Made by a program: the position numbers and the translations under genes. Under the pieces are notes generated by a model. It had not been told where the DNA came from. It did not search any database and saw only the letters and a program-made list of their open reading frames with translations. Below, one piece after another: positions 1-42,656 of a stretch of 64,000 nt of DNA. The stretch's first letter is position 1. Every line of letters begins with the position of its first letter. Where the stretch lies: contig OZ024741.1 in the NCBI GenBank assembly GCA_964016885.1, forward strand, positions 240,126,001-240,190,000, read 5' to 3'. This DNA is from Eledone cirrhosa. Taxonomy: Eukaryota.

Positions 1-917
1 GAATATTTACTTAAGAAAATGTTTCCACTGGTTTCATTTAACTGAAAATAACTTTTTGTTAGATCTGATGTTTTGGGGCTAAAATGGAAAGTAATTTTAC
101 CATTTTCACCAGAATCAGAATCTGTTACAGATAAAACAATGATAGGTTTAGATTTGTGATGTGTACTTTGTATGGATATATTATATAGAGGTTTAGAAAA
201 TACTGGTGGGTTGTCATTCACATCTATTATAGAGATATTTATATTTAAAATACCTTGTTTAGATGGTGAACCTCCATCTTTAGCTATGACTTGTAGTAAA
301 TATGTATCTTTGATTTCTCTATCTAATGATTCTTTTAAAACTATTTTAAGTGAAGAAATACCATCTGCTCTTTTAGAGACAGACAGAGAGAATGGTTCTC
401 CATTCTTGGATTTTAATTTATATTGTATTAATGAGTTCTGAAAACCTACATCTTTGTCTATGGCATTTGGTAGCGATCTCTTTGAACCTTTGCGATCATC
501 TTCACCAAATTGTATGTTGACATTCTTTATAGGAAACTCTGGTTGATGGTCATTGATGTCTTCTATTACTATTTTGACTTTTAATATTTTTGTAAAAGTT
601 TCCACTTTCTTTATAATAATTTTCACAGTTCTAGAACATTCTTTGTTGAAAGAACAAAGTTTCTCTGCATCCAGTGTCTGAGCAGTGTACAGTTTACCTG
701 TTTTCGTGATATTAAATAACTGTGCCACCTTTCGTTTAAATTGACTGAATGTTATCAATTGTTGGTCAGATGGTTTAACATTGTCTAAAAGTTTAGAATC
801 AGCAGCAATGTCTGCTACATATGTTCCTGGACTTCTTTCTTCTTCCACATGGTAGGTAAGGTCTATGGTCAGAACACAGTGTACCATTGATAATACAATA
901 GACAATGACAGTAACAT
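1..917 (-). CDS. Pcdh: Protocadherin A, 5' part of large exon (signal peptide, EC1, EC2, part of EC3); runs off window edge
   Basis: ATG at 917 reads MLLSLSIVLSMVHCVLTIDLTY... like the paralogs; acceptor tttcag|att with exon start 980. Not in the ORF track because no stop lies in the window. Confidence 0.93.
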   Translation of the reverse strand, partial: MLLSLSIVLSMVHCVLTIDLTYHVEEERSPGTYVADIAADSKLLDNVKPSDQQLITFSQFKRKVAQLFNITKTGKLYTAQTLDAEKLCSFNKECSRTVKIIIKKVETFTKILKVKIVIEDINDHQPEFPIKNVNIQFGEDDRKGSKRSLPNAIDKDVGFQNSLIQYKLKSKNGEPFSLSVSKRADGISSLKIVLKESLDREIKDTYLLQVIAKDGGSPSKQGILNINISIIDVNDNPPVFSKPLYNISIQSTHHKSKPIIVLSVTDSDSGENGKITFHFSPKTSDLTKSYFQLNETSGNIFLSKY

Positions 918-2002
918 ATTGTTGTAGTTGTTGTTGTGTTGGTACTGGTTAAAGATGTCCAGATATGCTGAGGATTGAATCTGAAACAGATATACATTTC
1001 ATCAATTATCATATTTTGACAGATTATAAGCAATCTATAGCATAAGAGATTTAACTTCAATACAGCAATCTCACAAAACTTTCATCCTGTTATGTCTATA
1101 TAATTTTGAAGGCTTCATTAACTATTTTATTCACTATATTTCAATGTGTTTCATAAGTGAAAAAAAATGAATTAATACATTTAGACCCCAAACATGAATG
1201 ATGTTATTTGTGGTGGAGTCAACAGTTGATATGAGAGAAAATAGCCAATTTTCTGAGTTACAAGAATTAATAGATACATTAGGAAGAGGCAATTACAGAA
1301 ACATCAAATTATGGGATCAGATTATGAAGGTTACCCATTATATAATAGACAGATTTTATCTTTTGCAAGAGAAACAATTGGGCTGGCTTGTTTATTTGAT
1401 GCTGAAGGAAAGTTTTATGAATTTAGTACCAAGCATTTGAAGTAGATAGAAGCTGTGGAAAAGAGAGACCAAGAAAGACATGAGATGAAGTTCTGAAAAA
1501 TGATCCCAAGAAACAGAGCCTCATGAAGAAGATGACCCAGGATTGTGATGACTGGCAATTTGTTGTACTAAAATAGACCCATCCACTCAGACAAGAATTG
1601 CAAAGTTAAAAGTAAATGTAATGAAAGATTGGAGACTGCATGGAGTAGAAAGCACCTATAGTGGATGAGACAACTTCTCTCAGTGGAGAAACATACTCAG
1701 TCAATGTAAGGTAGAGAGTACCTTTTGGTCCTGCTGAGGACTTGGCAATCTTTCCAGTGTTGCTAACATGATAAAAGATGCCCAGTACATCCTGCAATAT
1801 AGTTGACATCGAATGGAGATAATATAAAGTGGGGAGAACTCTTCAATCTTGCTAAATACATGACAACCTCTCTCATGCTGGGAACACAATAAAATACACC
1901 CAGCACATGCTGTAAAAGTGCTAGAGCTCATGAAACAATACATTGCATCCGATACACTCTGTAAAGTGGTAGTGATGATGCCATGATAACATTCCCCCAT
2001 CA

Positions 2003-5203: not shown

Positions 5204-6492
5204 TTAGTTCAATAATGCCAAATACTTTGTAGTTCTATTGAAGTTTATTTTACTATCTAAACTTACAATTCTGAGATTTAGACATATCTATATGATATTC
5301 CACTGGTTGAACTAAACAATGCCAGTGACATTTGTTATAAGCAGTAAACTGTTTAAAGAAGCAAAAGAGAAAAAAATAACCTCTGTACAGAAACTAAGGA
5401 CCCATATTATAGAGCATGAGGAAACTACATATATTTATAAACTGTTATCAAGTCTATCTTTATGAACACTTATAACATCAGTGTTATTTACTAGGAGTAT
5501 AATGTATATAGGAACTCCTCAAATTATAAACCAAGGAAAGAACAAGTGAAAAGTGAATGTTTCAAAATATTACTAAGAATCAGAGACATATGTAATATTT
5601 AGCTTAAAGTGGTGGCTCAGAGAGGCCAGGATGTTTTGAAGAACAGAGATCATTAATAGCAGTTAATATAAATTTATCAAAAACATACATAGAGAATATA
5701 TAAAAAAAGAGTTAAAGAAATAGATTTCTAGTTCTGAATTTAACTTTTGTATATCATATACATTTAAAACTAATTTAATCATTCAGATAAAAATAATAGA
5801 AGTATGTAAAATATAGATAAATATAGTTTTAAATTTGTTAAAATTAAATTAAAGAAAAAATGTTTATAAAGAAATAAAGTAGGAAGTTGAAAAAAATTAT
5901 ATTTTACTATGATTATTACAAAGAAACGTTAGAAACAAATACACAGAATTTAAAATGTTTATAATTTAACATGAAATAGGGCTAGTTTTTATTTTAAGGT
6001 CTTCTATAACGTACCACATTGTTTCTATTCTCTTGCTGACAGCTGTAAATCGTAATATGTCCGCCATTATCCCTAACCAAAATCTGTAACACACAACTAT
6101 CTCATTGCTAACAATGTACATGCTTTAATCACATTTAAGCACATTGTAAAATATGTATATCTATTTTATACCAAATATCTTAACATACCCTTCATATATT
6201 CTCTATATACAGACACAACATTAAATAGACTGTTTTCTATTGTTACTGTTCTGTATACGTAACAAATATTATATAGATACAGATAATATAGTTTCAATGC
6301 AATAAAACCTAAATATTAAACATTTTCACCAACATCATCCGAGTGTGATATAAAACAATATGGACAATACTAATGTAAAATATGTGAATTATTATTTAAT
6401 ATCTTTGTTCTCAGGTTAATATTAAATATGTTAGAATATCTTACAGATTTACTAAGATTTAGTATATAAAATTAGATTAAATAGAAACTTAC

Positions 6493-6930
6493 CTCTTTAA
6501 TATTTATATCATTGGTTATGCAGTGAGAATAGAAAGATGTATTGTTATAGAAAGCTCCATTGTAAGTGCTGCTGTAATGGTGTGTGACAATGGCTGTATG
6601 TTGATGGAGTAGTGTAGCACGTCAGGCAGATAGTCTGCTGCTAGGATAGGGTTGTGTGTGTTATTGGAGTTCTATGCTTGTGACAGTACCTCTCTCTAAT
6701 ATTGTATATGTATTTATCCTTAAAGATGATGTTTGTTTACTATTATCAATAACTATTTACATATATATAGATATATATGTTTAAATAGCTACAATATTCT
6801 ATAGTTAAACATAACATAAATGTTTAGTTTAATAACATCAGTAATGTGAATATTTCTCTTTGTTAGTGATTTCTATCTATGTTTTAGTGAGAATCTGATT
6901 GGTCAAATGACCTAAACCGAAGACCAATGA
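6493..6930 (-). promoter_or_regulatory. Conserved promoter / non-coding exon 1 cassette of gene A
   Basis: Donor GAG|GTAAGT at 6493; ATTGG 6898 and CCAAT 6924; CACGTCA; repeated once per gene unit. TSS not determinable. Confidence 0.75.
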
Positions 6931-7395: not shown

Positions 7396-7472
7396 TTACA
7401 CATGTTTCACTGGTGTTTCTTCACTGGAATCCTTTGATGTAGATGTATCATTATTTTTGTATATATTTTGAT
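7396..7472 (-). CDS. Pcdh: Protocadherin B last coding exon (DQNIYKNNDTSTSKDSSEETPVKHV*)
   Basis: tttcag acceptor, phase matches upstream exon, TAA at 7396-7398, conserved in 7 copies. Confidence 0.85.
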
Positions 7473-7700: not shown

Positions 7701-7866
7701 CTGATATTCCTGGTAATTCTTCATAATGTTTCATATCACCTTCATTCAATACACGTCTACTACTTCTCTTAGATGACATTGTATCTGATGTATAGTTACA
7801 AACTATAGGAGGATTATCTTCCACAGCATCATCACTTGATGTCACTACAACAGGTTGACAGTATTT
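7701..7866 (-). CDS. Pcdh: Protocadherin B cytoplasmic exon 3 (166 nt, KYCQP...YEELPGIS)
   Basis: Pyrimidine tract plus caacag acceptor, CAG|GTTAAT donor, in frame. Confidence 0.88.
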
Positions 7867-8049: not shown

Positions 8050-10425
8050 TGGGGTAGGTTTTGGTAAAGTTCTTGACTGAACTGAAGCTTCATATTTATT
8101 CTGTAGCTGACCTTCTGAATAACATTCACTCTTTGATCTCTCAGAATATATATTTCTTTTTATCATCTCTTCTGTATTCCTTGACATAGCAACAGGATTG
8201 TTAGACTGATACAACAATTGTTTCATCTCTGTTCTACCTTGGTATGCTGTAGTCTTTGTTGTAGTAGCTGTGTTATCTCTGTGTTTAATACATTTCATTA
8301 TACACAGTGTTATAGAAACAACAATAGCCACTGATACTATTACTGCTGATGATACAATGATAATAACCCATGTCATATGGACTCTACCTGAAGATTGTAT
8401 AGGTACACTTTTCAACATTGGTGATGTCTCATTACTAACAGCCAATACCAAAGTCACACTAGTTGTTGATGACTGAACTGGACTACCACTGTCTTTTACA
8501 ACAAACTTTAGTTCATAACTTCCAGCATCATTTAGATAAACTTGTCTGGAGAAGGATAAAGCACCACTGTGTGAGTTCATAGTAAACAACTGTTTATTAT
8601 TTCCTTGTATGATTTCATATGTGAGGAAAGCATTGTTTCCACTGTCACCATCAGATGCTCTGAAAACTGTGATGTCACTTTTACTCTGGGGATGGTAGTG
8701 GACATTTAGGGTATAAGGGTCAACACTAGGAAAGGTGAAATATGGAATATTGTCATTTTGATCTAAAATCTCAACAACAACGTTGGCCGTGTCATTCAGA
8801 GATGGACTTCCATTATCTTTGACAAAAACTTCAAATTTATACACATCTTGTTTCTCTCTGTCTAATGACATGGTGGCTGAAATAAAGCCATAACTTGTGA
8901 TCAGAAATGGTAGATTTGATTTTTCTTTATGTATCAGAGAATATGTGAGTTGTCCAGCAGATCCAAGGTCAGGGTCAGTGGCATTGACAAAACCAATAGG
9001 GAAGTCTTTATCTTTGTTTTCATAGGTCAGGAATTGGAATGTATCTTTGGTAAACTGTGGTTGTACATCATTGATATCAGTCACTTGGATAGAGAGAGTT
9101 TTAACACTTTTAAGAGGTGGTAATCCTTTATCTTGACATGAAACAGGAATGTTATAGTGTCCTTGTGTTTCTCTGTCTACTGGTTTGTTTAGAACTATTT
9201 TATATTCTTTAGATCCCATTGACTGTAGTTTGAATGTATCATGTTTGATATCACAGCTGACCTCTCCATTTTGTCCAACATCATTGTCAGTGACCATCAC
9301 ATAAGCAATGAAACTCCCAGCTTTGATATCTTCAGAAATGGTAGCTGTGTTGTCATTGATAGCAGAAACATAATCTATATCAATAGATGGAGGGTTGTTG
9401 TGTTGGTTGATAACATTTACCAGAACTGTTGCTATAGAATTAAGAGGGGGGTTACCCCCATCTCTAGCTTCTATAAACAATTCATAGGTTTTCCTTTTTC
9501 CTAAACTTGAATATTTATTTAAGAAAATGTTTCCACTAGTTTCATTTAATTGGAAATTGCTCTTAGCAAGATCTGATGTCTTTGGACTGAAATGGAAAGT
9601 AATTTTACCATTTTCACCAGAATCAGAATCTGTTACAGATAAAACAATGATAGGTTTAGATTTGTGATGTGTACTTTGAATAGATATATTATATAGAGGT
9701 TTAGAAAATACTGGTGGGTTGTCATTCACATCTATTATAGAGATATTTATATTTAAAATACCTTGTTTTGATGGTGAACCTCCATCTTTAGCTATGACTT
9801 GTAGTATATATGTATCTTTGATTTCTCTGTCTAATGATTCTTTTAAAACTATTCTAAGAGAAGAAATACCATCAGCTCTTTTAGAGACAGACAGGGAGAA
9901 TGGTTCGCCATTCTCGGATTTTAATTTATATTGTATTAATGAGTTCTGAAAACCTACATCTTTGTCTATGGCATTAGGTATTGACCTTTTGGCACTTTTA
10001 CCAATATCCTCATCAAACTGTATATTAACATTCTTCAGAGGAAACTCAGGTATATGATCATTGATGTCTTCTATTACTATTTTAATTTTTAATATTTTAG
10101 TAACACTTCTTCCTTTGTTAACAACAACCTTCACAGTTCTAGAACATTCTTTGTTGAATGTACAGAGCTTCTCTGCATCCAGTGTCTGAGCAGTGTACAG
10201 TTTACCTGTTTTCGTGATATTAAATAACTGTGCCACCTTTCGTTTAAATTGACTGAATGTTATCAATTGTTGGTCAGATGGTTTAACATTGTCTAAAAGT
10301 TTAGAATCAGCAGCAATGTCTGCTACATATGTTCCTGGACTTCTCTCTTCTTCCACATGGTAGGTAAGGTCTATGGTCAGAACACAGTGGACCATTGATA
10401 ATACAATAGACAATGACAGTAACAT
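8050..10425 (-). CDS. Pcdh: Protocadherin B large exon (SP, 6 EC, TM, proximal tail; 792 codons)
   Basis: DxNDxxP, LDRE and AxDxG cadherin motifs, EC1 Cys-X5-Cys, hydrophobic TM; donor CCA|GTAAGT at 8050; 5'UTR acceptor at 10486. Confidence 0.97.
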
Positions 10426-12015
10426 ATTGTTGTAGTTGCGTTGGTAGTGATTGGTTAAAGATGTTCAGTTTTGTCGAAGATTGAACCTGAAATTGGAATA
10501 TTTACAGGACAATGAATAATGTTTAAAATGCATCTGCATAAATGACTAGTATAGTGTAAAGGGGAACCTCTTACTTCTGCCAGACAGTGTCTCAGATAAC
10601 ATTTCAGTTACAACACAATCAAAGATATTCCTCTGAAAAACTAGGTATGAAAGAGGAGCTACTAGGCTATGTATAAAAGTGCCTATCATAGTACTTAGTG
10701 CCATAGAGACATCAACAATATCTGACTGTCCACAAGAACTATTATTGAGGCAACACTTTATATATCCACAGGTCTTCACTATTTTCTAGCCATAATATTA
10801 GAGGGGATACTAAGCTATCACTCTATAAAACAGTGTACCATACCAGGCAATTCTCATATCTAGTAGTCTATATTGCTGCTATGAACCCCTAGATAGCTAC
10901 CCTTCCCTTTTTTGATCAAGCCTAACATGTTAATGTATGAACAATAAGAATAGTAACTAAAACCGTGACAAGGCACACTTTAACCCTAACTGATGCAAAG
11001 AGGAAGAGGCTCTTTAGCACAATCACAGACAAACCCGGACACATTTTTCACACCTAGTTATATGGAAAAGAAAGGATCAGTCAACAAACACAGTACAAGG
11101 AGGAATGGAATCTCTTTTGTCTTTCTGAGGATCAAGGCAACCTCATTGGTGCCAATGAATGAACAAAGACAAAATAAGGTAAAGATGATGTCTAAGCCTT
11201 AAAAGAGATGAGACAAAACAATAACAAAATGCAGCCAGCAAACTCTAGCATGTGAGGTAGTAGTAAGAGTATCCAGCTAAAGAAAGCATAAAAAAATGGA
11301 ATGGATGAACAAGTCATAGCCCCCTCTTCCCCTGTCTAGGTAGTTAGTACGTCAGAATTAACTCAGACCATGACAAGCGCTGTCTAATGGCAGTGCAGAA
11401 ACCAGATGTAAAATGAAGATGATTAAAATAGAGATTAATTTAACATATCAGCTGACTTATTATTAGGAGTAACTACTTTAGTTGAAGATATGAAAAAAAA
11501 AAATTACAGTACGTTTTATACATGCAAGTTACGTCCCTTAGACCAATATACAAATATTGATAGGAATAAGGTTTAGTTTAACAGCAGTTATTCACATCTG
11601 TGCACCAAAGAATACTCATTACATTCTACACCAAGAATTCTTCTCTATAAGCCTGACTTTTTCTTTTCACATATATTACACAAAGTATCTTTATGTGTGT
11701 GTGTAGGTAGAGAGAGAGAGAGAGGGAGAAAGATAATATGGAGTAAAAGAGGTGGCACAGAGGAAGAATAGTCATTGAGGAGGTAAAAATAAAAGGTTGA
11801 TGAAAGAACTTTGAAAATTAAATGACAATTAAATAACTACCCGGTTACTAAACTAATCAAGGAATGGATTAGTTAGTAAACTAATAATAAAACTGAAGGG
11901 AAACTCAACTGGTGCAAGCATTTTTATAGGCAACATGGCTCCCCAAATTATAACAATGTGTGTGTGTGTTTGTATATACACACAAACACAGAGGTCATCA
12001 TCATCATTATTATTA

Positions 12016-13060: not shown

Positions 13061-14243
13061 CAAAAGTTAAGTCTTTAGGAAAGACAATCAATAAATAAAT
13101 TGTTGAATCCAATCTAGTTTAAGGTAGTTTAAGGTATGTTTACAATGGCTATTCATTATGAGTGATTATATCATTGTTTCTGAAATGTAGGATTGTAAAT
13201 TACTGAGGAATCTAGGATTAGAAGAATGGTGAAAGAATAAGTTGCATGAGATTGCTAAAATGAAGTCTGAAATATTTGTGAATGTGACAGAGATACAGAC
13301 CAGAATGAAAATTCTGATGACTACAAATTCTTGAAAAGAGTTTATGTGACTAATACAAAAACGTATATAAACATAATAAAACACAGATTACTATTTTGAG
13401 ATAATGATGAATTCTTTTATTTTAATCAGTAAATTTAAATTATACATAAAATACAATCCTACTAAAAATTATGTAATATATTAGCTTTAAAAATGTTATT
13501 AAAATCTACAAACAAAAATTCCCTAACTAAATATAGGAAAATAAAGTGTAAAATAGGATAGAAAATTTACACTGAATTTATAAAATTAAATCATAAAAGC
13601 AGCAAGAAGGAAGATATACAAAATAAATTACATTTTATTTGGATTTAATTACAACTTTGACATATAAGTAAACATATATAATATAAATGATAGTGTCTAT
13701 ATTTTATCAACACCAAGTGGGGCTGGTACTTCTATTGCCTTCTACAACATGCCACAAATTTTCTATTCAGTAAATATCAACATGTCTGCCATTATCCTCA
13801 ACCAAAATCTGTAACCCACCATTACTACTTAGAGTCTATAAACTATAACCAGATTTTAACAAATAGAATATTTCGTCTATACTAAACATTTGAATAAATC
13901 TTTCATATATTACATTACATTTAACAAAACAAAATCAAAACAAATAAGAAACATGAGTATTATATATTGTATACATTGCTTTCTATTGTTACTGATAAAT
14001 ATATATAACAAATATTACAGACACACACAAAATTGTTTTGATAGAATAAAATCTAAATATTAAACATTTTAACCAACATCAGCTACTTAATTCTGATATA
14101 AAACAATATGGACAACATTACGGAAAAATGTGTGAATTATTGTTCAATCTCTTTGTTCTCATGTTAATATTAAATATGTTAGAAACTTATCTTATAGATT
14201 TACTGAGATTTAGTATATAAAATAAGATTAAATAGAAACTTAC

Positions 14244-14684
14244 CTCTTTAATAATTATATCATTGGTTATTCAGTGAGAATAGAAAGATGTATTGTTGTA
14301 GAAAGCTCCATTGTAAGTGCTGCTGTAATGGTGTGTGACAATGGCTGTATGTTGATGGAGTAGTGTAGCACGTCAGGCAGATAGTCTGCTGCTAGGATAG
14401 GGTTGTGTGTGTTATTGAAGTTGTATGTTCGTGGCAGTACATCTCTCTAATAATATTGTGGATGTATTTATCCATAATTATGATGTTTGTTTACTGTTAT
14501 CAATAACTATTTACATATTTATATAGATATATATTTAAATAGCTACAATATTCTATAGTTAAACATAACATAAATGTTTGGTTAAATAACATCAGTAATG
14601 TGAATGTTTCTCTTTGTTAGTGATTTCTGTCTATGTTTTGGTGAGAATCTGATTGGTTGAATGACCTAAACAGAAGACCAATGA
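14244..14684 (-). promoter_or_regulatory. Conserved promoter / non-coding exon 1 cassette of gene B
   Basis: Donor at 14244; ATTGG 14652 and CCAAT 14678. Confidence 0.75.
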
Positions 14685-15247: not shown

Positions 15248-15324
15248 TTATACATGTTTCACTGGTGTTTCTTCACTGGAAGCTTTTGATGTAGATGTAT
15301 CATTATTTTTATATATATTTTGAT
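15248..15324 (-). CDS. Pcdh: Protocadherin C last coding exon
   Basis: ttccag acceptor; ...SKASSEETPVKHV*. Confidence 0.85.
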
Positions 15325-15752
15325 CTGGAATTTAGGAAAAAAATGACATTTTACAAAATTAGAGGAGGGAACATTTCCTTTATAAATAATGTTCAAAGAC
15401 AGGAAAGGCATAATGATTAAATACTCAAAGTAGTGGATGAAAAAATAAAAAAACTAAATTTCTATACACAAATAGTATTATATAGTAAAATATCATTAGA
15501 AAAAGAAAAGTACTTCTACATTCAAGATGTGATTAAAGACTTTTGTGGGCATCCTTTTGGTATTAAATTATGTAATGAAAAGAGAGAAAAAAGATATTTT
15601 TATAAAATGTACATATTGTAGGATGTGAAGGATCAGATGAGTAAAAATAAAACAAAATGAATTCTTATTTAATGACAGATGTGTTAAATATAGTTGTTAA
15701 AAATTCAATGTTGATGATATTGAAATATAATATAACCAATATAGTTATTAAC

Positions 15753-15918
15753 CTGATATTCCTGGTATTTCTTCATAATGTTTCATATCACCTTCATTCA
15801 ATACACGTCTACTACTTCTCTTAGATGACATTGTATCTGATGTATAGTTACAAACTATAGGAGGATTATCTTCCACAGCATCATCACTTGATGTCACCAC
15901 AACAGGTTGACAATATTT
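15753..15918 (-). CDS. Pcdh: Protocadherin C cytoplasmic exon 3
   Basis: 166 nt, AG/GT bounded, paralogous to 7701-7866. Confidence 0.88.
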
Positions 15919-16101
15919 CTGTTGACAAACAAACCAAGAGAAATGTGAGGAGACATCAAACAATCATAGTTACAATAAACATGTAGTTTACAATTTAATA
16001 TTGGACTATATTATTGAAGATAAAACATTGTTAAAATAATCTTATTGTTTATCTTTTACATATAAAGTGAAGATAGAAAATATTTTAATCTTTTCACTTA
16101 C

Positions 16102-18477
16102 TGGGGTAGGTTTTGGTAAAGTTCTTGACTGAACTGAAGCTTCATATTTATTCTGTAGCTGACCTTCTGAATAACATTCACTCTTTGATCTCTCAGAATA
16201 TATATTTCTTTTTATCATCTCTTCTGTATTCCTTGACATAGCAACAGGATTGTTAGACTGATACAACAATTGTTTCATCTCTGTTCTACCTTGGTATGCT
16301 GTAGTCTTTGTTGTAGTAGCTGTGTTATCTCTGTGTTTAATACATTTCATTATACACAGTGTTATAGAAACAACAATAGCCACTGATACTATTACTGCTG
16401 ATGATACAATGATAATAACCCATGTCATATGGACTCTACCTGAAGATTGTAAAGGTACACTTTTCAACATTGGTGATGTCTCATTACTAACAGCCAATAC
16501 CAAAGTCACACTAGTTGTTGATGACTGAACTGGACTACCACTGTCTTTTACAACAAATTTTAGTTCATAACTTCCAGCATCATTTAGATAAACTTGTCTG
16601 GAGAATGATAAAGCACCACTGTGTGAGTTCATAGTAAACAACTGTTTATTATTTCCTTGTATGATTTCATATGTGAGGAAAGCATTGTTTCCACTGTCAC
16701 CATCAGATGCTCTCAAAACTGTGATGTCACTTTTACTCTGGGGATGGTAGTGGACATTTAGGGTGTAAGGGTTAACACTAGGAAAGGTGAAATAGGGAAC
16801 ATTGTCATTTTGATCTAAAATCTCAACAACAACATTAGCTGTGTCATTTAGAGATGGACTTCCATTATCTTTGACAAAAACTTCAAATTTATACACATCT
16901 TGTTTCTCTCTGTCTAATGACATGGTGGCTGAAATAAAGCCATAACTTGTGATCAGAAATGGTAGATTTGATTTTTCTTTATGTATCAGAGAATATGTGA
17001 GTTGTCCAGCAGATCCAAGGTCAGGGTCAGTGGCATTGACAAAACCAATAGGGAAGTCTTTATCTTTGTTTTCATAGGTCAGGAATTGGAATGTATCTTT
17101 GGTAAACTGTGGTTGTACATCATTGATATCAGTCACTTGGATAGAGAGAGTTTTAACACTTTTAAGAGGTGGTAATCCTTTATCTTGACATGAGACAGGA
17201 ATGTTATAGTGTCCTTGTGTTTCTCTGTCTACTGGTTTATTTAGAACTATTTTATATTCTTTAGATCCCATTGACTGTAGTTTGAATGTATCATGTTTGA
17301 TATCACAGCTGATCTCTCCATTTTGTCCAACATCATTGTCAGTGACCATCACATAAGCAATGAAACTACCAACTTTGATCTTCTCAGAAATGGTAGCTGT
17401 GTGGTCATTGATAGCAGAAACATAATCTATATCAATAGATGGAGGGTTGTTGGGTTGATTGACAATATTTATCAAAACTGTTGCTATGGAACTAAAGGGA
17501 GGGTTGCCTCCATCTCTAGCCTCGATAAACAGTTCATAGGTTTTCTTTTTTCCTAAACTTGAATATTTATTTAAGAAAATATTTCCACTGGTTTCATTTA
17601 ATTGGAAATAGCGTTTTGCAAGATCTGATGTCTTTGGACTGAAATGGAAAGTAATTTTACCATTTTCACCAAAATCAGCATCTGTTACAGATAAAATAAT
17701 GATAGGTTTAGATTTGTGATGTGTACTTTGTATGGATATATTGAATAGAGGTTTAGAAAATACTGGTGGGTTGTCATTCACATCTATTATAGAGATATTT
17801 ATATTTAAAATACCTTCTTTTGCTGGTGAACCTCCATCTTTAGCTATGACCTGGAGTAAATATGTATCTTTGATTTCTCTGTCTAATGATTCTTTCAAAA
17901 TTATGTTAAGAGAAGAAATACCATCTGCTCTTTTAGCAACTGACAGTAAGAATGGTTCTCCATTCTTGGATTTTAATTTATATTGTATTAATGAGTTCTG
18001 AAAACCTACATCTTTGTCTATGGCATTTGGTACTGATTGTTTGGCACCTTTACCAATATTTTCATATAATTGTATGTTGACATTCTTTGTAGGAAACTCA
18101 GGTTGATGGTCATTGATGTCTTCTATTACTATTTTGATTTTTAATATCTTTGTAACACTTATTCCTTTATTGACAACAACTTTCACTGTTCTAGAACATT
18201 CTTTGTTGAATGTACAGAGCTTCTCTGCATCCAGTGTCTGAGCAGTGTACAGTTTACCTGTTTTGGTGATATTAAATAACTGTGCCACCTTTCGTTTAAA
18301 TTGACTGAATGTTATCAATTGTTGGTCAGATGGTTGAACATTGTCTAAAAGTTTAGAATCAGCAGCAATGTCTGCTACATATGTTCCTGGACTTCTCTCT
18401 TCTTCCACATGGTAGGTAAGGTCTATGGTTAGAACACAGTGGACCATTGATATTACAATAGACAATAGGAGTAACAT
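16102..18477 (-). CDS. Pcdh: Protocadherin C large exon
   Basis: Intact ORF with 6 cadherin repeats and TM; donor at 16102; acceptor at 18535. Confidence 0.97.
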
Positions 18478-18634
18478 ATTGTTGTTGTTGTGTTGGTACT
18501 GGGTTAAAGATGTCCAGATATGTTGAAGATTGAACCTGAAATAGAAGTTTAAATTACAAAATTGTCACTAAAACATTTGAAAAACATAAAGCTATTATTT
18601 TACAACAGAACTTTTATAGATCAAAATACAATTT

Positions 18635-22023: not shown

Positions 22024-23050
22024 AGTAGTGGACAAAGAAGCAGGCAGGTTTTGAAGAACAGACATCAGTAATAGTTGCAGTTAATATAAATTTATCAAAA
22101 ATATAGATACAGAATATCACAAAATATAGAGAGTTAAAGAGGTAGACAATTAGTTCACATTTTAACTTTTACATATCATATTGATTTAAAATTAATTAAA
22201 TAAGGCAGTTAAAAAATATTGATTTAAAATTAATTAAATAAGGCAGTCAAAAAAGTAGTAAAAGTATATAAATAATGGAAATCAAAGAAAAATTGTCAAT
22301 GAAATATTGATGAAAATAGTATGAAATATGGTTGAAATAATAGAGTGAACTTATAGAAAAATTTATAGAAAGAAATGAAGTAGGAAGATGTTGAAAAAGT
22401 TTATATTTCACTATGACTAACACAAATTAACTTTAGAAACAAATATACAGAATTTAAAACGTTTATAATTTAACATGTGTTTAACAGTGCTAGCCTTTAT
22501 AATGTCTTCTACAACATGCCATCATGTTTCTCTTCACTTACTGACAGCTGTAAATCCTAATATGTCTGCCATTATCCCTAACCAAAATCTATAACACACC
22601 ACTATCTCATTGCTAACAATGTACATGCTATAATCACATTATAATACATTGTAAAATATCTATTTCATATGAAACATCTTTAAAAAATCTTTCAGTTATT
22701 CTCTATATAAAAACACAAGCTTACATCTTACAAACAAAAACAAACATACATTACAACACTCACTATATAGACTGTTTTCTATGGTTAGTGTTCAGTATAC
22801 GTAATAAATATTATATACACACAGATCATACGGTTTCTTTGAAATAAAGTCTAAATATTAAAGATGTTCACTAATATTATCCAATTGTGATATAAAACAA
22901 TACAGACAACATTACTGAAAAACGTCTGAATTATAGTTCAATATCTTTGTTCTCATGGAATTATTAAATATGTTAGAACAATATCTTACAGATTTACTGA
23001 GATTTAGTATATAAAATGAGATTATAAAATGAGATTAAACAGAAACTTAC

Positions 23051-23487
23051 CTCTTTAATAATTATATCATTGGTTATTCAGTGAGAACAGAAAGATGTAT
23101 TGTTGTAGAAAGCTCCATTGTAAGTGCGGCTGTAATGGTGTGTGACAATGGCTGTATGTTGATGGAGTAGTGTAGCACGTCAGGCAGATAGTCTGCTGCT
23201 AGGATAGGGTTGTGTGTGTTATTGGAGTTGTATGATTGTGACAGTACATTTCTCTAATAATATTGTGTATGTATTTATCCTTAACTATGATGCTTGTTTA
23301 CTGTTATCAATAACTATTTACATATATATAGCTATATATATTTAAATAGCTACAATATTCTATAGTTAAACATAACATGTTTGGTTTAATAACATCAGTA
23401 ATGAGAATGTTTCTCTTTGTTAGTGATTTCCGTCTATGTTTTAGTGAGAATCTGATTGGTTGAATGACCTAAACAGAAGACCAATGA
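23051..23487 (-). promoter_or_regulatory. Conserved promoter / non-coding exon 1 cassette of gene C
   Basis: Donor at 23051; ATTGG 23455 and CCAAT 23481. Confidence 0.75.
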
Positions 23488-23858: not shown

Positions 23859-23935
23859 TTACACATGTTTCACTGGTGTTTCTTCACTGGAATCCTTTGA
23901 TGTAGATGTATCATTATTTTTGTATATATTTTGAT
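23859..23935 (-). CDS. Pcdh: Protocadherin D last coding exon
   Basis: AG acceptor, ...EETPVKHV* with TAA at 23859. Confidence 0.85.
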
Positions 23936-24160
23936 CTGGAATTTAAACACAAAACTCATTTTACATCATTATGGACCATTCTGTTATTTAGTAAACAATA
24001 TGAAAAGAAAGAAAAAAGATATAATTCTGAGTTTGTTATCAGAAAGAGAAACATTCCTATTTAATGGGTGAATTGTTAATAAATATCTATAAACAGTTGT
24101 TAATAACTGAATAAATGTGAGATGATATCAAAATATAATATAAGCAAAGTAGATGTTAAC

Positions 24161-24326
24161 CTGATATTCCTGGTATTTCTTCATAATGTTTCATATCACC
24201 TTCATTCAATACACGTCTACTACTTCTCTTAGATGACATTGTATCTGATGTATAGTTACAAACTATAGGAGGATTATCTTCCACAGCATCATCACTTGAT
24301 GTCACCACAACAGGTTGACAATATTT
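24161..24326 (-). CDS. Pcdh: Protocadherin D cytoplasmic exon 3
   Basis: 166 nt, AG/GT bounded. Confidence 0.88.
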
Positions 24327-24432
24327 CTGTTGACAAACAAACCAAGAGAAATGTGAGGAGATATCAAACAATCCTAGTTACAATAAACATGTAGTTTACA
24401 ATTAAATATTAGACTATATTATTGAAGATAAA

Positions 24433-24614
24433 GGGCGGTGAATTGGCAGTATCGGTAGAGTCTCGGACATGCTTTCCAGCATAGTTACGTCCCTTTATGA
24501 TCTGAGTTCAAATCCCGCCGAGGTTAACTTTGCCTTTCATCCATACGGGGTCGATAAAATAAAGTACCAGTAATGTACTGGGTATTTGCTGGCCTTGTGC
24601 CAAAAGTAGAAACA
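24433..24614 (+). mobile_element. Full-length tRNA-derived SINE with 15-bp target-site duplication, in gene D intron 2
   Basis: A box tggcagtatcgg, B box gagttcaaatccc; TSD attattgaagataaa at 24418-24432 and 24615-24629; absent from the paralogous introns. Confidence 0.92.
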
Positions 24615-24689
24615 ATTATTGAAGATAAAACATTGTATATCTTTTACATATAAAGTGAAGAAAGAAAATATTTTAATCTTTTCACTTAC

Positions 24690-27065
24690 TGGGGTAGGTT
24701 TTGGTAAAGTCCTTGACTGAACTGAAGCTTCATATTTATTCTGTAGCTGACCTTCTGAATAACATTCACTCTTTGATCTCTCAGAATATATATTTCTTTT
24801 TATCATCTCTTCTGTATTCCTTGACATAGCAACAGGATTGTTAGACTGATACAACAATTGTTTCATCTCTGTTCTACCTTGGTATGCTGTAGTCTTTGTT
24901 GTAGTAGCTGTGTTATCTCTGTGTTTAATACATTTCATTATACACAGTGTTATAGAAACAACAATAGCCACTGATACTATTACTGCTGATGATACAATGA
25001 TAATAACCCATGTCATATGGACTCTACCGGAAGATTGTATAGGTACACTTTTCAACATTGGTGATGTCTCATTACTAACAGCCAATACCAAAGTCACACT
25101 AGTTGTTGATGACTGAACTGGACTACCACTGTCTTTTACAACAAACTTTAGTTCATAACTTCCAGCATCATTTAGATAAACTTGTCTGGAGAAGGATAAA
25201 GCACCACTGTGTGAGTTCATAGTAAACAACTGTTTATTATTTCCTTGTATGATTCCATATGTGAGGAAAGCATTGTTTCCACTGTCACCATCAGATGCTC
25301 TCAAAACTGTGATGTCACTCTTACTCTGGGGATGGTAGTGGACATTTAGGGTGTAAGGGTTAACACTAGGAAAGGTGAAATATGGAACATTGTCATTTTG
25401 ATCTAAAATCTCAACAACAACATTGGCTGTGTCATTCAGAGATGGATTTCCATTATCTTTGACAAAAACTTCAAATTTATACACATCTTGTTTCTCTCTA
25501 TCTAATGACATGGTGGCTGAAATAAAGCCATAACTGGTGATCTGAAATGGTAGATTTGATTTTTCTTTATGTAGCAGAGAATATGTGAGTTGTCCAGCAG
25601 ATCCAAGGTCAGGGTCAGTGGCATTGACAAAACCAATAGGGAAGTCTTTATCTTTGTTTTCATAGGTCAGGAATTGGAATGTCTCTTTGGTAAACTGTGG
25701 TTGTACATCATTGATATCAGTCACTTGGATAGAGAGAGTTTTAACACTTTTAAGAGGAGGTAATCCTTTATCTTGACATGAGACAGGAATGTTATAATGT
25801 CCTTGTGTTTCTCTGTCTACTGGTTTGTTTAGAACTATTTTATATTCTTTAGATCCCATTGACTGTAGTTTGAATGTATCATGTTTGATATCACAGCTGA
25901 TCTCTCCATTTTGTCCAACATCATTGTCAGTGACCATCACATAAGCAATGAAACTACCAACTTTGATATCTTCAGAAACGGTAGCTGTGTTGTCATTGAT
26001 AGCAGAAACATAATCTATATCAATAGATGGAGGGTTGTTGTGTTGGTTGATAACATTTACTAAAACTGTTGCTATGGAACTAAATGGAGGCTTACCACCA
26101 TCTCTAGCCTCTATAAACAATTCATAAGTTTTCTTTTTTCCCAAACTTGAATATTTATTTAAGAAAATGTTTCCACTGGTTTCATTTAATTGGAAATAAC
26201 CTTTTGTTAGGTCTGATGTCTTTGGGCTGAAATGGAAAGTAATTTTACCATTTTCCCCAGAATCAGCATCTGTTACAGATAACACAATGATAGGTTTAGA
26301 CTTATGATATGTACTTTGTATTGATATATTGTACAGAGGTTTAGAAAACTCTGGTGGGTTGTCATTCACATCTATTATAGAGATATTTATATTTAAAATA
26401 CCTTGTTTTGATGGTGAACCTCCATCTTTAGCTATGACCTGGAGTAAATATGTATCTTTGATTTCTCTGTCTAATGATTCTTTTAAAATTATGTTAAGAG
26501 AAGAAATACCATCTGCTCTTTTAGAGACTGACAGAGAGAATGGTTCACCATTCTTGGATTTTAATTTATACTGTATTAATGAATTTTGAAATCCAACATC
26601 TTTGTCTATGGCATTTGGAAGTGATACTTTAGATCCTTTGCTATCATTTTCATCAAACTGTATGTTGACTTGGTTCATAGGAAACTCAGGTTTATGATCA
26701 TTGATGTCTTCTATTACTATTTTGATTTTTAGTATTTTTGTAACACTTGTTCCTTTATTAACAACAACCTTCACAGTTCTAGAACATTCTTTATTGAAAG
26801 AACAAAGTTTCTCTGCATCCAGTGTCTGAGCAGTGTACAGTTTACCTGTTTTCGTGATATTAAATAACTGTGCCACCTTTCGTTTAAATTGACTGAATGT
26901 TATCAATTGTTGGTCAGATGGTTTAACATTGTCTAAAAGTTTAGAATCAGCAGCAATGTCTGCTACATATGTTCCTGGACTTCTCTCTTCTTCCACATGG
27001 TAGGTAAGGTCTATGGTCAGAACACAGTGAACCATTGATAATACAATAGACAATGACAGTAACAT
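24690..27065 (-). CDS. Pcdh: Protocadherin D large exon
   Basis: Intact ORF; donor at 24690; acceptor at 27134. The 842-aa ORF call runs on into the intronic SINE. Confidence 0.97.
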
Positions 27066-28709
27066 ATTGTTGTAGTTGTAGCTGTAGTTGTGTTGGTACT
27101 GGTTAAAGATGTCCAGATCAGTTGAGTGTTGAACCTAAAATGGAAATACATTGTGAACAATTATAAGAAATGAGTTGGTTTAAAATACACAGTGAAACAA
27201 AAATACATGCATGTATTATTTACAACAGAACATTTAAAGATTAAAGCACAAGGTAATAACTTAATTTCAACATATTTATAGAATTGAAAAATAAAATAAA
27301 ACAATAAATAAATATATAAAACCTGGTACTCTATGGAATATCTGATTTACCAAATAGATGACAATAGTGAAAAATAATTAATATGATACAAACTTTCACA
27401 TTTAAAACCATTAAAAAATGTTCCAGAAATTAGCTATAGTTTATACTTAGTTCTTATATGTAACAGCACACAACATATAATTTATTTTCTTAATCAGATT
27501 AAATTTTTGGCTGATATAAGTTTAGAGTGCCACTTATTTTGATATTAAAACATTTATCTGAATGTAATGTAGTCTTTGTGATATTATTTGAATATATGCT
27601 ACATGCTACTCATCATTAATGAGAAGAAAAAAAATCAACATTTCTAGACTGCTCCCCATATGATAAATCTATGTATATCTGAGACAAAAGTATAGTCAGG
27701 GACAGAGACTTTACATCTGAAGCAGGAGGTTTATAAATCAAACCTAGTCATTTGACTCACTCCTAAAAAATACAGGAATGTCGAGTCAGAGCTGACCTTA
27801 GAGATAAACAAACAAAAACCTCATGAATCATATTATATATCTCAATTCTAGATGAGACCAGTTATCTTAGAATTCTTCCATAAAAATGTAATAAACATTA
27901 ATTGCCTGAAATATCCACTTCTCAGTGATGTTATGGCAGATCTGAAGCTGTCCCTCAACTATGTTTTCACTACTTCAGTAACCTTTCTAGAAATCCTATA
28001 ATTTCATTCATAATCACAGACCACAAACATGTAGTTAATCTCTAAAGCTGTCTCCATTCTTGTCTGTAGACTTTCTTTGCTCCATTCATATTTCTTAATA
28101 TCTCATATTGATAAACTAAAATATTAATAATAATGATTAAATATAATATATTTTTAATAAAATACAACCACTTAAGAATATTAAAATATTATATATAAAC
28201 AAGAGCAAAGAATTTATGATTGATTAATTTAACATACCATTTAAGTGACTTATTACATCAGCCTTGGTTGAATATGAGAAATTTGATCAGTTCCAATACA
28301 TTAATTTTAAATACATATGGATTACAACCTTACATCAACAAATCTAAATTGTTTGTTATATATATATCTGGAGGTATGATGTTTACTTTTACTACAGTGT
28401 ACTTGTGACACATTTGTGCAACAAAGAATTCTTGTTACATTCTGTAAGGATCATTCTTGCTCTATAATCCAATATTTTTCCCATTTAATTACTTAAAGCA
28501 AACTATTTTACACATATGAAACATTCTTTACGTGTATTTTTTCAAAAGTAATTTCTATCAATTCCTATAAACCTCTATAAGATGTAAGATTCATTCATTC
28601 ATTCATTCATTTAGATCAAGGGAGCTCATTGAATTCTGAGATTAAAGATTAACTCTTCATTTTGTAATTACTTGTATTATCAATGATTGTTTGAAGAAAC
28701 AAGTCAGTG

Positions 28710-29030: not shown

Positions 29031-30216
29031 GAATCACAATAAATCATCAATCATCATCATCATCATCATCCAGTTTTTGATTATGCAGGACACAATATAA
29101 CTTTCCGTGTAGTTTAAAGCATTTTTACAGTGGCTACTTCAAATATAAGTGTATCTGAGAGGCACGAGTGCCAATTATCTTAATATGACGATCAAACATT
29201 TTATGAAAAAATGAAGACTAAAATGCAACAGTTTAAGTAGAGTATCAGGAAAGTGAACAAAATTGTGATGATTAGAGATTATTAACAATAACATATAGGC
29301 ATAGAGAACATTACAAATCATAATTGATAATACAAAGATGGTGATGATGATTGTAAATTATTTTCAATTTAATCAGTAAATCTAACACATATTTAAAATA
29401 CAACTCAACTTTGATCTCCATCAAAAATATCAAAAATATTATAAAAATCTACAAACAAGAATTCATAACTAAATATAGCAAAATATAGTGTAAAATACAA
29501 TGGAAACTTTACAGTGAATTTATACAGCAGTTGTGTAGGAAAATGTTTAAAAAGTTATATTTTATTATAACTTACTCACAAACGTGATTTAATGGTAAAT
29601 ATATACAATATATATGGTGTTGACCTTATTTTTTCAGTTCCATAGCTAGACATTCTTCTTGTATTGTAATCCTGTATGCCACCATATTTCTATTCACTTC
29701 TTAATTGCTATAAATCCTACTATTTTTATCGTTATCCCTAACCAAAATCTATAACCACCATTAGCTCATCACTGATAATAATCTACACATTAATACCATA
29801 TTTAAACACATTAGAGCAAATTTATTCATATCTTAATATATTTTTCAAATAACATCTACCATATAGACAGAAATTACATCTTATGTACAAAAAAAAAAAA
29901 GAAAACAGGAATTAAACACAAACACACATTACACCACTATGTTATACAAACAGTTCTCTATCATTATTGAACTATATATGTAATACATATTATATAGACA
30001 AAGATAAGGTTGTTTTAATGGAATACAGTTCAAATATTAAATATCTTAAGCAACATAAAACAACACAGGCAACATTACTGAAAAATACGTGTGAATTATT
30101 GTTCAATCTCTTTGTTCACATCTTAAATATTAAATATGTTAGAACAATATCTTATAGATTTACTAAGATTTAGTATATAAAATAAGATTATAAAATGAGA
30201 TTTAATAGAAACTTAC

Positions 30217-30636
30217 CTCTTTAATAATTATATCCTTGGTTATTCAGTGAGAATAGAAATATGTATTGTTGTAGAAAGCTCCATTGTAAGTGCTGCTGTA
30301 ATGGTGTGTGACAATGGCTGTATGTTGATGGAGTAGTGTAGCACGTCAGGCAGATAGTCTGCTGCGTGTTATTGGAGTTGTATGATTGTGACAGTACATT
30401 TCTCTAATAATATTGTGTATGTATTTATCCTTAAATATGATGTTTGTTTACTGTTATCAATAACTATTTACATATATATAGATATATATATTAAATAGCT
30501 ACAATATTCTATAGTTAAACATAACATGTTTGGTTTAATAACATCAGTAATGTGAACGTTTCTCTTTGTTAGTGATTTCTGTCTATGTTTTAGTGAGAAT
30601 CTGATTGGTTGAATGACCTAAACAGAAGACCAATGA
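30217..30636 (-). promoter_or_regulatory. Conserved promoter / non-coding exon 1 cassette of gene D (16-bp internal deletion)
   Basis: Donor at 30217; ATTGG 30604 and CCAAT 30630; lacks taggatagggttgtgt. Confidence 0.73.
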
Positions 30637-32261: not shown

Positions 32262-32338
32262 TTATACATGTTTTACTGGTGTTTCTTCACTGGAATCTTT
32301 TGATGTAGATGTATCATTGTTTTTATATATATTTTGAT
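32262..32338 (-). CDS. Pcdh: Protocadherin E last coding exon
   Basis: ttgcag acceptor, ...PVKHV*. Confidence 0.85.
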
Positions 32339-32576
32339 CTGCAATTTAGGAAAAAATGATATTTTACAAAATTAAAGCAGGGAACATTCCCATATTAAAT
32401 AGTGTATAAAGACAGAAAAAGCAGAGTGATCAAATGCTTAAAGTAGTGGACAGGTAAATAGATACATTCTTCACTTTCTTATACAGTATTTTATATAGTT
32501 AAATATTGTTAGAAATATATGTGCATCTGAATGTGAGATTATATCTAAGTACAATATAGCAAAAGTAGTTGTTAAC

Positions 32577-32742
32577 CTGATATTCCTGGTAATTCTTCAT
32601 AATGTTTCATATCACCTTCATTCAATACACGTCTACTACTTCTCTTAGATGACATTGTATCTGATGTATAGTTACAAACTATAGGAGGATTATCTTCCAC
32701 AGCATCATCACTGGATGTCACCACAACAGGTTGACAATACTT
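32577..32742 (-). CDS. Pcdh: Protocadherin E cytoplasmic exon 3
   Basis: 166 nt, AG/GT bounded. Confidence 0.88.
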
Positions 32743-33124
32743 CTGTTGACAAACAAACCAAGAGAAATGTGAGGAGACATCAAACAATCCTAGTTACAAT
32801 AAACATGTAGTTTACAATTTAATATTGGACTATATTATTGAAGATAAAGCATTTTAAAAATAATCTTATTGTTTATAAGTATGTATACGTACATACGTAT
32901 ATGTATACAGACGTACAGTAGTATGTATATACATACATACATGCACACATATATATATATGGGTTTACTGAACATTTATTATAATGTTCGGTTTGTTTGT
33001 AAACAAACAGCCCGAATTAAGGCATACAGTGTTCGGCAACCATCGTTGCCCTTTTGTTCAACACTTAATGTTTATCTTTTGCATATAGAGTGAAGATAGA
33101 AAATATGTTAATCTTTTCACTTAC

Positions 33125-42579: not shown

Positions 42580-42656
42580 TTATACATGTTTCACTGGTGT
42601 TTCTTCACCGGAATCTTTTGATGTAGATGTATCATTGTTTTTATATATATTTTGAT
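42580..42656 (-). CDS. Pcdh: Protocadherin F last coding exon
   Basis: AG acceptor, ...SKDSGEETPVKHV*. Confidence 0.85.

What the first reader, a model, noticed from the sequence alone, without database searches (positions are those of the whole stretch)
6493..6930. One near-invariant promoter / first-exon cassette per gene, with a fixed-geometry inverted CCAAT pair
Seen: seven copies (6493, 14244, 23051, 30217, 41697, 50814, 59132) are far better conserved than the flanks. Each has ATTGG and CCAAT starting exactly 26 bp apart around a TGACC core, an AT-rich TATA-like stretch, CACGTCA (CRE/ATF-like), the inverted repeat GCAGA-tag-TCTGC and a strong donor that pairs with an acceptor about 55-90 nt upstream of each ATG. 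Established: vertebrate clustered Pcdh promoters share a conserved element (CTCF-bound CSE) used for stochastic choice. Inference: an independently evolved equivalent, equal promoters that could compete for a shared enhancer. I see no clear CTCF consensus.
Basis: partly seen in the sequence, partly recalled or inferred. Interest (0 to 1): 0.75.

Follow-up and report, generated by a model that had tools for sequence, protein, structure and literature searches.

The report
Shared promoter cassette of octopod protocadherins
In this tandem array of octopod nerve-cell adhesion (protocadherin) genes, each gap between neighbouring genes holds a near-identical 440-base non-coding block that looks like the next gene's promoter and first untranslated exon, which gives a concrete target for asking how a neuron chooses which genes to express.

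Summary
The element is real: 7 copies on the minus strand, one in each gap between 8 tandem octopod protocadherin genes, 95.5% identical against 49-65% in most non-coding flanks. It most likely is a promoter plus non-coding first exon. Both CCAAT boxes match the extended NF-Y consensus in 7 of 7 copies (0 of 20,000 shuffles). The block ends in AG|GTAAGT, and all 8 large exons start at a splice acceptor with no conserved sequence upstream. Much of the near-invariance is gene conversion: synonymous sites outside EC2-EC3 are just as similar and group by species. Selection also acts: the core around the palindrome and CRE-like site is almost unchanged in three O. bimaculoides database entries. Corrections: the TATA-like stretch is missing in 2 of 7 copies, the fixed 26-bp spacing is not independent evidence, and there is a third CCAAT box and a conserved upstream ORF. 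It is not a vertebrate CSE (no CGCT, no CTCF match, 3-6 kb from the ATG). No transcript, chromatin or expression data were available, so splicing is inferred and stochastic choice or enhancer competition is untested. My literature searches did not find the element described.

The parts
6487..6930 (-). Cassette c1 (putative promoter + non-coding exon 1 of gene G0, ATG at 917)
14238..14684 (-). Cassette c2 (for gene G1, ATG 10425)
23045..23487 (-). Cassette c3 (for gene G2, ATG 18477)
30211..30636 (-). Cassette c4 (for gene G3, ATG 27065); third CCAAT box lost; 16-nt deletion before the palindrome
41691..42117 (-). Cassette c5 (for gene G4, ATG 35497); (TA)n tract shortened, no TATAWAWR
50808..51241 (-). 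Cassette c6 (for gene G5, ATG 45807); (TA)n tract shortened, no TATAWAWR
59126..59565 (-). Cassette c7 (for gene G6, ATG 55098)
6896..6930 (.). Back-to-back pair of extended NF-Y-type boxes (RRCCAATSR on each strand, 17 nt between the 9-mers) at the upstream edge of c1; same in 7 of 7
   Evidence: 7 matches; 0 in 100 whole-window shuffles
6753..6788 (.). Inverted pair CTATTT(A/T)A ...
6626..6638 (.). Palindrome GCAGA-CTA-TCTGC, invariant in 7 of 7; start of the most conserved core
6618..6624 (-). CRE/ATF-like TGACGTG with one CpG, invariant in 7 of 7
6516..6560 (-). 14-codon upstream ORF (MELS...) in the putative leader, present in 7 of 7; a 2-codon uORF follows in 6 of 7
6509..6517 (-).
6487..6494 (-). 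Splice donor AG|GTAAGT (exon ends at 6493), invariant in 7 of 7
917..980 (-). G0: acceptor (exon starts at 980), untranslated part of the large exon, and ATG; predicted partner of the c1 donor
8050..10486 (-). G1 large exon: acceptor, 61-nt UTR, signal peptide, six cadherin repeats, TM, proximal tail; ends at donor CCA|GTAAGT
7701..7866 (-). G1 166-nt coding exon (KYCQPVVV...); 166 nt in 7 of 7 genes
7396..7472 (-). G1 last coding exon (DQNIYK...VKHV stop); stop lies 470 nt before cassette c1
15248..18535 (-). Protocadherin G2 (acceptor to stop)
23859..27134 (-). Protocadherin G3 (acceptor to stop)
32262..35574 (-). Protocadherin G4 (acceptor to stop)
42580..45893 (-). Protocadherin G5 (acceptor to stop)
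51683..55158 (-). Protocadherin G6 (acceptor to stop)
60487..63660 (-). Protocadherin G7 (acceptor to stop); its own cassette would lie beyond the window end

Best explanation
Each cassette is the promoter and non-coding first exon of the next protocadherin gene. SHOWN in sequence: the motifs, the donor, the acceptor, one cassette per gene gap in one orientation, homogenisation across copies, and conservation of the core in another octopus. INFERRED: NF-Y binds the back-to-back CCAAT pair at the upstream edge, and a CREB/ATF-type factor and dimeric factors bind the CRE-like site and the two dyads. Pol II starts somewhere between the CCAAT pair and the core. Exon 1 is spliced from AG|GTAAGT over a 3-6 kb intron to the acceptor 58-86 nt before the ATG, giving a leader with a short uORF. 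The copies stay about 95% alike because gene conversion homogenises every constrained part of the repeat unit (cassette, EC1, EC4-EC6, TM, tail) while EC2-EC3 escape, and purifying selection holds the core fixed between species. The result is a row of nearly interchangeable promoters driving receptors that differ mainly in EC2-EC3. How a cell chooses among them is not addressed by these data.
For: Both boxes fit RRCCAATSR in 7 of 7; two such boxes within 40 bp occurred in 0 of 20,000 dinucleotide shuffles of c1; only 5 of 120 CCAAT pentamers outside the cassettes fit the extended consensus. One box is on each strand, which suits a double-stranded DNA element. The spacing leaves room for two NF-Y trimers, going by the contacts (-7 to +17) given in PMC4982600 (passages; the fit to this back-to-back geometry is my inference). 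AGGTAAGT arises in 0.6% of shuffles and only 3 times outside cassettes. It is top or tied top among 264-407 GT sites in 6 of 7 intervals and the only strong donor at a homologous place in all 7. Large exons begin at an acceptor in 8 of 8, with 0.795 identity on the exon side and 0.489 on the intron side, so no shared promoter sits next to the ATG. The core is C-rich (C 0.27) like the UTR after the acceptor (0.29) and unlike post-stop or intron sequence (0.07-0.17). Three O. bimaculoides UniRef entries are translations of the same core, needing 0, 0 and 1 minimal base changes over 60 nt against 5-14 over the 54 nt upstream. Conversion: c3-c4 differ by 2.6% in the cassette but 29.1% in intron 1; EC4-tail proteins group by species while EC2-EC3 form two cross-species classes.
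Against: No spliced read, CAGE, ATAC or ChIP datum was seen. The start site is unknown, and the CCAAT pair lies about 300 nt from the CRE-like site and 430 nt from the donor. No conserved TATA box. The cassette is much closer to the previous gene's stop (376-1630 nt) than to the next ATG (3.2-6.2 kb). ATTAAA sits just before the donor and a TGTAAATA (Pumilio-type, recalled) motif occurs in 7 of 7. Motifs were picked after seeing the sequence, and the 7 copies count as roughly one observation. One interval holds a stronger, non-conserved donor (47920). The core is not significantly more conserved across species than the coding tail (Fisher p 0.11). The genomic positions of the O. bimaculoides entries were not available.
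Confidence: 0.75

Rival explanations
1. The block is an internal non-coding exon plus enhancer-like element. Transcription starts further upstream, or reads through from the previous gene, and the cassette is spliced in or acts at a distance.
For: TCTTCTGTTTAG|G inside the CCAAT spacer looks like an acceptor. Read-through transcripts fusing PCDH genes are mentioned for Octopus in PMC9712504 (methods section). RefSeq isoform pairs of O. sinensis appear to join exons of different units.
Against: That AG is lost in c5 (6 of 7), and its likeness to the real acceptors is weak (p 0.04-0.61 over 8 comparisons). No conserved block lies between the previous stop and the cassette to serve as another promoter.
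Confidence: 0.1
2. The block is the conserved distal 3' UTR and polyadenylation region of the upstream gene.
For: It lies only 376-1630 nt after the stop. ATTAAA followed by T-rich sequence and a TGTAAATA motif are present in 7 of 7. The most recent duplicate pair (c5/c6) shares gene end and cassette as one block.
Against: AATAAA/ATTAAA arises in 62% of shuffles and TGTAHATA in 12%, against 0.6% for the donor and 0 of 20,000 for the NF-Y pair. Every gene already has an AATAAA 131-311 nt after its stop (7 of 7). One CCAAT box is on the non-transcribed strand. The core has no RNA structure (z 0.09). This reading leaves the acceptor before each ATG without a shared donor.
Confidence: 0.08
3. The block has no special function; it is similar only because of recent tandem duplication and gene conversion.
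For: Intron 2 (0.912) and four-fold sites outside EC2-EC3 (0.89-1.00) are as similar as the cassette. Conversion is evident.
Against: Conversion does not hold sequence fixed between species: the homogenised TM and proximal tail differ 12-13% from other octopods, while the core is almost unchanged in O. bimaculoides and its upstream neighbour is not (Fisher p 2.4e-5 for c2 against P0148). Other intergenic sequence has decayed to 49-65%.
Confidence: 0.04
4. The block is a transposon- or SINE-derived repeat, or a small RNA / micropeptide gene, carried in each unit.
For: At least three copies exist in O. bimaculoides and were annotated as small ORFs. An AT-rich hairpin folds in the middle (z -1.0 to -3.6).
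Against: Exactly one copy per unit in one orientation and no further copy in the window, unlike the SINE-like repeat found at 7 scattered places in both orientations. No Pol III B-box, no Rfam match, no tRNA. The reading frame shifts between species and in c5, and the start codon is absent here. The hairpin is shortened by 14 nt in 2 of 7 copies.
Confidence: 0.03

Closest known systems
Vertebrate clustered protocadherin promoters with the conserved sequence element (CSE, CGCT box, CTCF/cohesin)
   Same: One conserved element per tandem, co-oriented protocadherin unit. EC2-EC3 escape gene conversion while other ectodomains are homogenised (PMC4978886 passages; seen here). A methylatable CpG lies in the conserved motif.
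   Different: No CGCT and no CTCF-like match. The element is 3-6 kb from the ATG behind an intron, not about 200 bp upstream. It is about 440 nt long and includes a spliced non-coding exon. Each gene carries its own small 3' exons rather than shared constant exons. No enhancer, looping or stochastic expression is shown.
Coleoid protocadherin clusters (full-gene tandem duplicates; PMC9068888, PMC6339937, PMC9795677)
   Same: The genes are ordinary members: multi-exon, head-to-tail, about 90% identical in the C-terminal region searched to O. sinensis / O. vulgaris and 85-87% to Argonauta hians proteins. Homogenisation by gene conversion was already suggested.
   Different: The passages I read describe no promoter, shared upstream element or non-coding first exon. 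The authors' reply in the PMC9712504 review file calls the large exon the first exon; here it starts at an acceptor.
Chelicerate sDscam tandem 5' cassettes (PMC4835542)
   Same: An invertebrate neuronal receptor array in which each repeat has its own promoter.
   Different: Different protein family; variable cassettes splice to shared constant exons; promoter activity was tested there, not here.
NF-Y double-CCAAT promoters (PMC4982600)
   Same: Two consensus CCAAT boxes close together; an inverted pair is cited there for human TOP2B.
   Different: The common arrangement there is a direct repeat about 31 bp apart; here the pair is back-to-back, 26 bp start to start. NF-Y binding in octopus is untested.

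Membership tests
Vertebrate cPcdh CSE promoter | CGCT box | tested here: not met
   0 of 7 cassettes contain CGCT on either strand; definition from PMC7811963 passages
Vertebrate cPcdh CSE promoter | CTCF-binding motif, one per gene, same orientation | tested here: not met
   Best match 5-6 mismatches, no better than shuffles; whole window 4 matches at 2 mismatches against 2.19 expected, none once per unit. Consensus strings were recalled.
Vertebrate cPcdh CSE promoter | About 200 bp upstream of the start codon, directly before the variable exon | tested here: not met
   Donor-to-ATG 3151-6199 nt; the 150 nt before the acceptor are 0.489 identical
Vertebrate cPcdh CSE promoter | Variable exons spliced to shared constant exons (alpha and gamma clusters) | tested here: not met
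   Each of 7 complete genes has its own two 3' coding exons. Cross-unit splicing is not excluded.
Vertebrate cPcdh CSE promoter | Stochastic per-cell promoter choice through looping to a distal enhancer, with differential methylation | not testable with these tools
   No single-cell, Hi-C or methylation data available
Pol II promoter with non-coding first exon | Proximal promoter motifs beyond chance | tested here: met
   Extended NF-Y pair 7 of 7, 0 of 20,000 shuffles; CRE-like site in 3.9% of shuffles
Pol II promoter with non-coding first exon | 5' splice donor matched by an acceptor before the ATG | tested here: met
   Donor 7 of 7, acceptor 8 of 8; sequence only
Pol II promoter with non-coding first exon | Conserved TATA box or other core element fixing the start site | tested here: inconclusive
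   TATAWAWR in 5 of 7, within a variable (TA)n tract; no DRE
Pol II promoter with non-coding first exon | Capped transcript starts and spliced reads | not testable with these tools
   No RNA data; the annotation file of PMC9712504 was too large to read
Coleoid clustered protocadherin gene (the host genes) | Six cadherin repeats, TM and proximal tail in one large exon; tandem, co-oriented full genes | tested here: met
   Cadherin_2 plus five Cadherin stretches in 7 of 7 complete ORFs; closest hits are octopod protocadherins
SINE / structured RNA / micropeptide gene | Pol III boxes, dispersed copies, Rfam match or conserved reading frame | tested here: not met
   genome-wide dispersal could not be tested

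The most novel reading that the evidence does not exclude
Octopods independently built a neuronal barcode locus without CTCF sites. Gene conversion plus selection keep a row of NF-Y/CRE promoter-exon cassettes equal in strength, so that each neuron activates a stochastic subset (possibly fixed by methylation of the CRE CpG), while only EC2-EC3 are allowed to differ. Near-identical first and last exons may also allow splicing across neighbouring units, mimicking vertebrate variable-to-constant splicing.
Probability: 0.2. Interest if true: 0.85.

Novelty: new variant of a known kind. Interest (0 to 1): 0.52.

Why it matters
How cephalopods regulate their 150-290 protocadherin genes is open; one review expects vertebrate-like stochastic, long-range control but notes that functional data on cohesin are lacking in spiralians (PMC10658181 passage). 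This gives a named, coordinate-level candidate promoter with testable sites (NF-Y pair, CRE-like CpG, donor). It shows the architecture differs from the vertebrate CSE, and that convergence extends to the pattern of sequence evolution (variable EC2-EC3, homogenised remainder). It also warns that short reads from exon 1 or the 3' exons cannot be assigned to single paralogs, which can create chimeric gene models.

Tried and rejected
Cassette as coding exon: all three frames have stops; tblastn of 120 fetched proteins against the cassettes plus 300 nt gave no hit; of 153 proteins only P0148 and P0153 hit; a search for longer proteins containing the P0148 sequence found 0 of 4 candidates, which is weak evidence. 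The C-terminal exons were found upstream of the cassette. Five other hits (36-41% identity over short stretches of long proteins) were set aside as probable composition-driven matches; they did not hit the cassettes. Rfam, tRNA and RNA folding of the core gave nothing. The whole-cassette fold (z -2.81) appears to come mainly from the (TA)n dyad, which varies between copies, so a miRNA precursor was rejected. The bacterial promoter scan is not applicable. CTCF consensus scans were negative. Likeness of the CCAAT spacer to the large-exon acceptor is not convincing. Trees of the cassette are nearly star-like and cannot tie it to the upstream or downstream gene. The Albertin 2015 octopus genome paper was not held, and the Iso-Seq/FLAM-seq annotation of PMC9712504 could not be read; either may already show this exon.

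Full report
Setting. The window (32% GC) holds eight long minus-strand ORFs, seven complete and one cut by the window start. All 7 complete ones carry one Cadherin_2 and five Cadherin stretches. A search with the C-terminal region returned 144 proteins; the 120 listed are all octopod entries, nearly all named protocadherin, led by O. sinensis and O. vulgaris (89-90%) and Argonauta hians (85-87%). The species is therefore an octopod other than those. Homologue tails let me place two further coding exons per gene: a 166-nt exon and a last exon ending VKHV-stop, in 7 of 7; the spliced frames are intact. The cassette lies 376-1630 nt after one gene's stop and 3151-6199 nt before the next gene's ATG.

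Observation. Seven copies exist at the stated places and no further copy in the window. The CCAAT pair, palindrome, CRE-like site and donor are present in 7 of 7, and an acceptor lies 58-86 nt before the ATG in 8 of 8. Identity is 0.955 in the cassette, 0.97-0.99 in the core around the palindrome and CRE-like site, 0.49-0.65 in the upstream flank, post-stop sequence, intron 3 and the end of intron 1, and it decays over about 800 nt after the donor. Two claims weaken: TATAWAWR is absent from c5 and c6 and is common in this DNA, and constant spacing is expected among copies with only 10 gap runs in 452 columns. I add a third CCAAT box about 20 nt before the donor (6 of 7), an inverted CTATTTA / TAAATAG pair around the (TA)n tract (7 of 7) and a 14-codon uORF (7 of 7).

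Is it more than chance? Treating the copies as one observation, I shuffled c1 20,000 times. Two extended NF-Y boxes (RRCCAATSR, consensus recalled; the 3' flank agrees with PMC4982600, passages) within 40 bp: 0. An inverted plain CCAAT pair within 40 bp: 1.0%. AGGTAAGT: 0.6%. A GC-containing 5-3-5 palindrome: 2.7%. TGACGT: 3.9%. In contrast the 3'-end motifs are common: AATAAA/ATTAAA 62%, TGTAHATA 12%. Outside the cassettes only 5 of 120 CCAAT pentamers have the extended flanks.

Why so invariant? Two forces. First, gene conversion. Four-fold sites are 0.89-0.95 identical in the signal peptide and EC1, 0.60-0.71 in codons 101-350 (roughly EC2-EC3) and 0.92-1.00 thereafter; the short intron 2 is 0.912. 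c3 and c4 differ by 2.6% in the cassette but 29.1% in the first 600 nt of intron 1. In trees of 44 proteins (7 from the window; the 19 Octopus and 18 Argonauta close relatives, leaving out a 5410-residue fused model, a 164-residue fragment and cluster members not listed), EC4-EC6+TM+tail group by lineage (window 99/92, Octopus 100/99, Argonauta 100/100; bootstrap not fully settled), whereas EC2-EC3 split into two classes (100/100) each holding all three lineages, with G1-G3 in one and G4-G7 in the other. Vertebrate clusters show the same EC2-EC3 escape (PMC4978886, passages). So equal promoters need no selection for equality.

Second, purifying selection. Searching with an open frame of the cassette found three O. 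bimaculoides UniRef 'uncharacterized proteins' (A0A0L8GLQ6, A0A0L8GYK0, A0A0L8GLM6) that read straight through the core. The match changes frame relative to the window copies, and the start codon is absent here, so it reflects nucleotide and not protein conservation. Minimal base changes are 0, 0 and 1 over 60 nt and 1-4 over the next 33 nt, against 5-14 over the 54 nt upstream in the five copies without a deletion there (c4 and c5 dropped). Fisher p is 2.4e-5 for the one pair tested (c2 against P0148); against the coding tail (11 in 213 nt) the difference is not significant, p 0.11. This measure sees only changes that alter a residue, and I could not see where these entries lie in that genome. 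Homogenised coding sequence (TM and proximal tail) still drifts 12-13% between lineages, so conversion alone does not explain the core.

What it is. The large exon starts at an acceptor with unalignable sequence upstream, so an upstream exon is needed. Among 264-407 GT sites per interval the cassette donor is top or tied top in 6 of 7 and is the only strong one shared by all seven; a 9-of-9 site at 47920 beats it in one interval. The core's C-rich make-up matches the UTR after the acceptor. CCAAT boxes on both strands and three dyad elements point to double-stranded DNA-binding factors. I therefore read the block as promoter plus non-coding exon 1 (0.75). The start site is not determined. If the O. 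bimaculoides models rest on transcripts, which I could not check, exon 1 would begin at least 200 nt before the donor and the palindrome and CRE-like site would lie inside it. Rivals are an internal exon or enhancer reached by read-through (0.10), a distal 3' UTR (0.08), no function (0.04), and a repeat or small gene (0.03).

Comparison. It works like the vertebrate CSE in being one conserved element per tandem protocadherin unit, but it is not one: no CGCT, no CTCF-like match, wrong position, and private 3' exons. Definitions come from PMC7811963 (passages) and PMC4978886. PMC9068888 (passages) states that coleoids diversify by full gene duplication and suggests conversion; the word promoter does not occur in its main text. 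PMC6339937 and PMC9795677 (passages) describe no such element in the passages shown. PMC9712504 (passages, methods section and review-file passages) reports about 21 PCDH per neuron, some broad and some cell-type-enriched, mentions read-through transcripts, and does not use the word stochastic. PMC4835542 (passages) gives the chelicerate parallel. PMC10658181 (passages) only expects vertebrate-like control. Six cephalopod or invertebrate searches plus two background searches showed no description of this cassette. The library lacks most subscription papers, including the 2015 octopus genome paper, and I could not see the annotation supplement of PMC9712504, so an annotated first exon may already exist unremarked.

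Verdict. A real, selected, apparently undescribed regulatory block, best read as a shared promoter and first exon, in a known gene family and by analogy to a known system: new variant of a known kind, interest 0.52. The stochastic-choice reading is allowed but unsupported (0.2; interest 0.85 if true).

Noticed in passing
window G1-G7 large exons, codons about 101-350: Only EC2-EC3 differ between paralogs (two classes, G0-G3 and G4-G7, about 26-30% apart in DNA); the classes are shared with Octopus and Argonauta while the rest of each gene is homogenised within species. G0 looks slightly closer to the G4-G7 class (about 26%), possibly a partial conversion tract.
   Followed up: yes
O. sinensis RefSeq proteins P0125/P0128 and P0132/P0134: Entries labelled isoform X1/X2 with consecutive accessions differ either only in the last exon (3 residues) or only in signal peptide and EC2-EC3 (29 residues), as if exons of different tandem units were joined: real cross-unit splicing or read mis-mapping.
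   Followed up: partly
window 36556-38795: A 601-residue reverse-transcriptase ORF (RVT_1, LINE-type) lies in intron 1 of G4; a 437-bp piece (37719-38155) is repeated in inverted orientation at 38359-38795 with 99.5% identity, suggesting a recent, 5'-rearranged insertion.
   Followed up: no
window about 6058-6095 and 420-490 nt after each donor: A second, weaker conserved island in intron 1 with ATAATGGC(A/G)GAC in 6 of 7 copies (YY1-like from recall, not matching the tested consensus); c5 and c6 also have a 2-mismatch CTCF-like site beside it (41231, 50356), not above chance.
   Followed up: partly
window 2252-2439, 12014-12174, 24429-24620, 49498-49575, 51781-51990, 59744-59818, 60774-60857: A dispersed SINE-like repeat in both orientations, inserted among other places in intron 2 of G3 and intron 3 of G6.
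   Followed up: partly
window 6516-6560 and homologues: A 14-codon uORF whose start and stop are kept in 7 of 7 copies although its internal changes are mostly non-synonymous; possible translational damping.
   Followed up: partly
window 7699-7700 and homologues: The donor after the 166-nt exon is weak (CAG|GTTAAT/C) yet kept in 7 of 7; one Argonauta model (P0005) appears to read through it, giving an alternative C-terminus.
   Followed up: no
window 12496-13064, 28632-29043, 4536-4775: Local tandem repeat arrays inside first introns (seen in the self-comparison).
   Followed up: no
UniRef A0A0L8GLQ6, A0A0L8GYK0, A0A0L8GLM6: These O. bimaculoides 'uncharacterized proteins' are probably spurious translations of this non-coding cassette.
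   Followed up: partly
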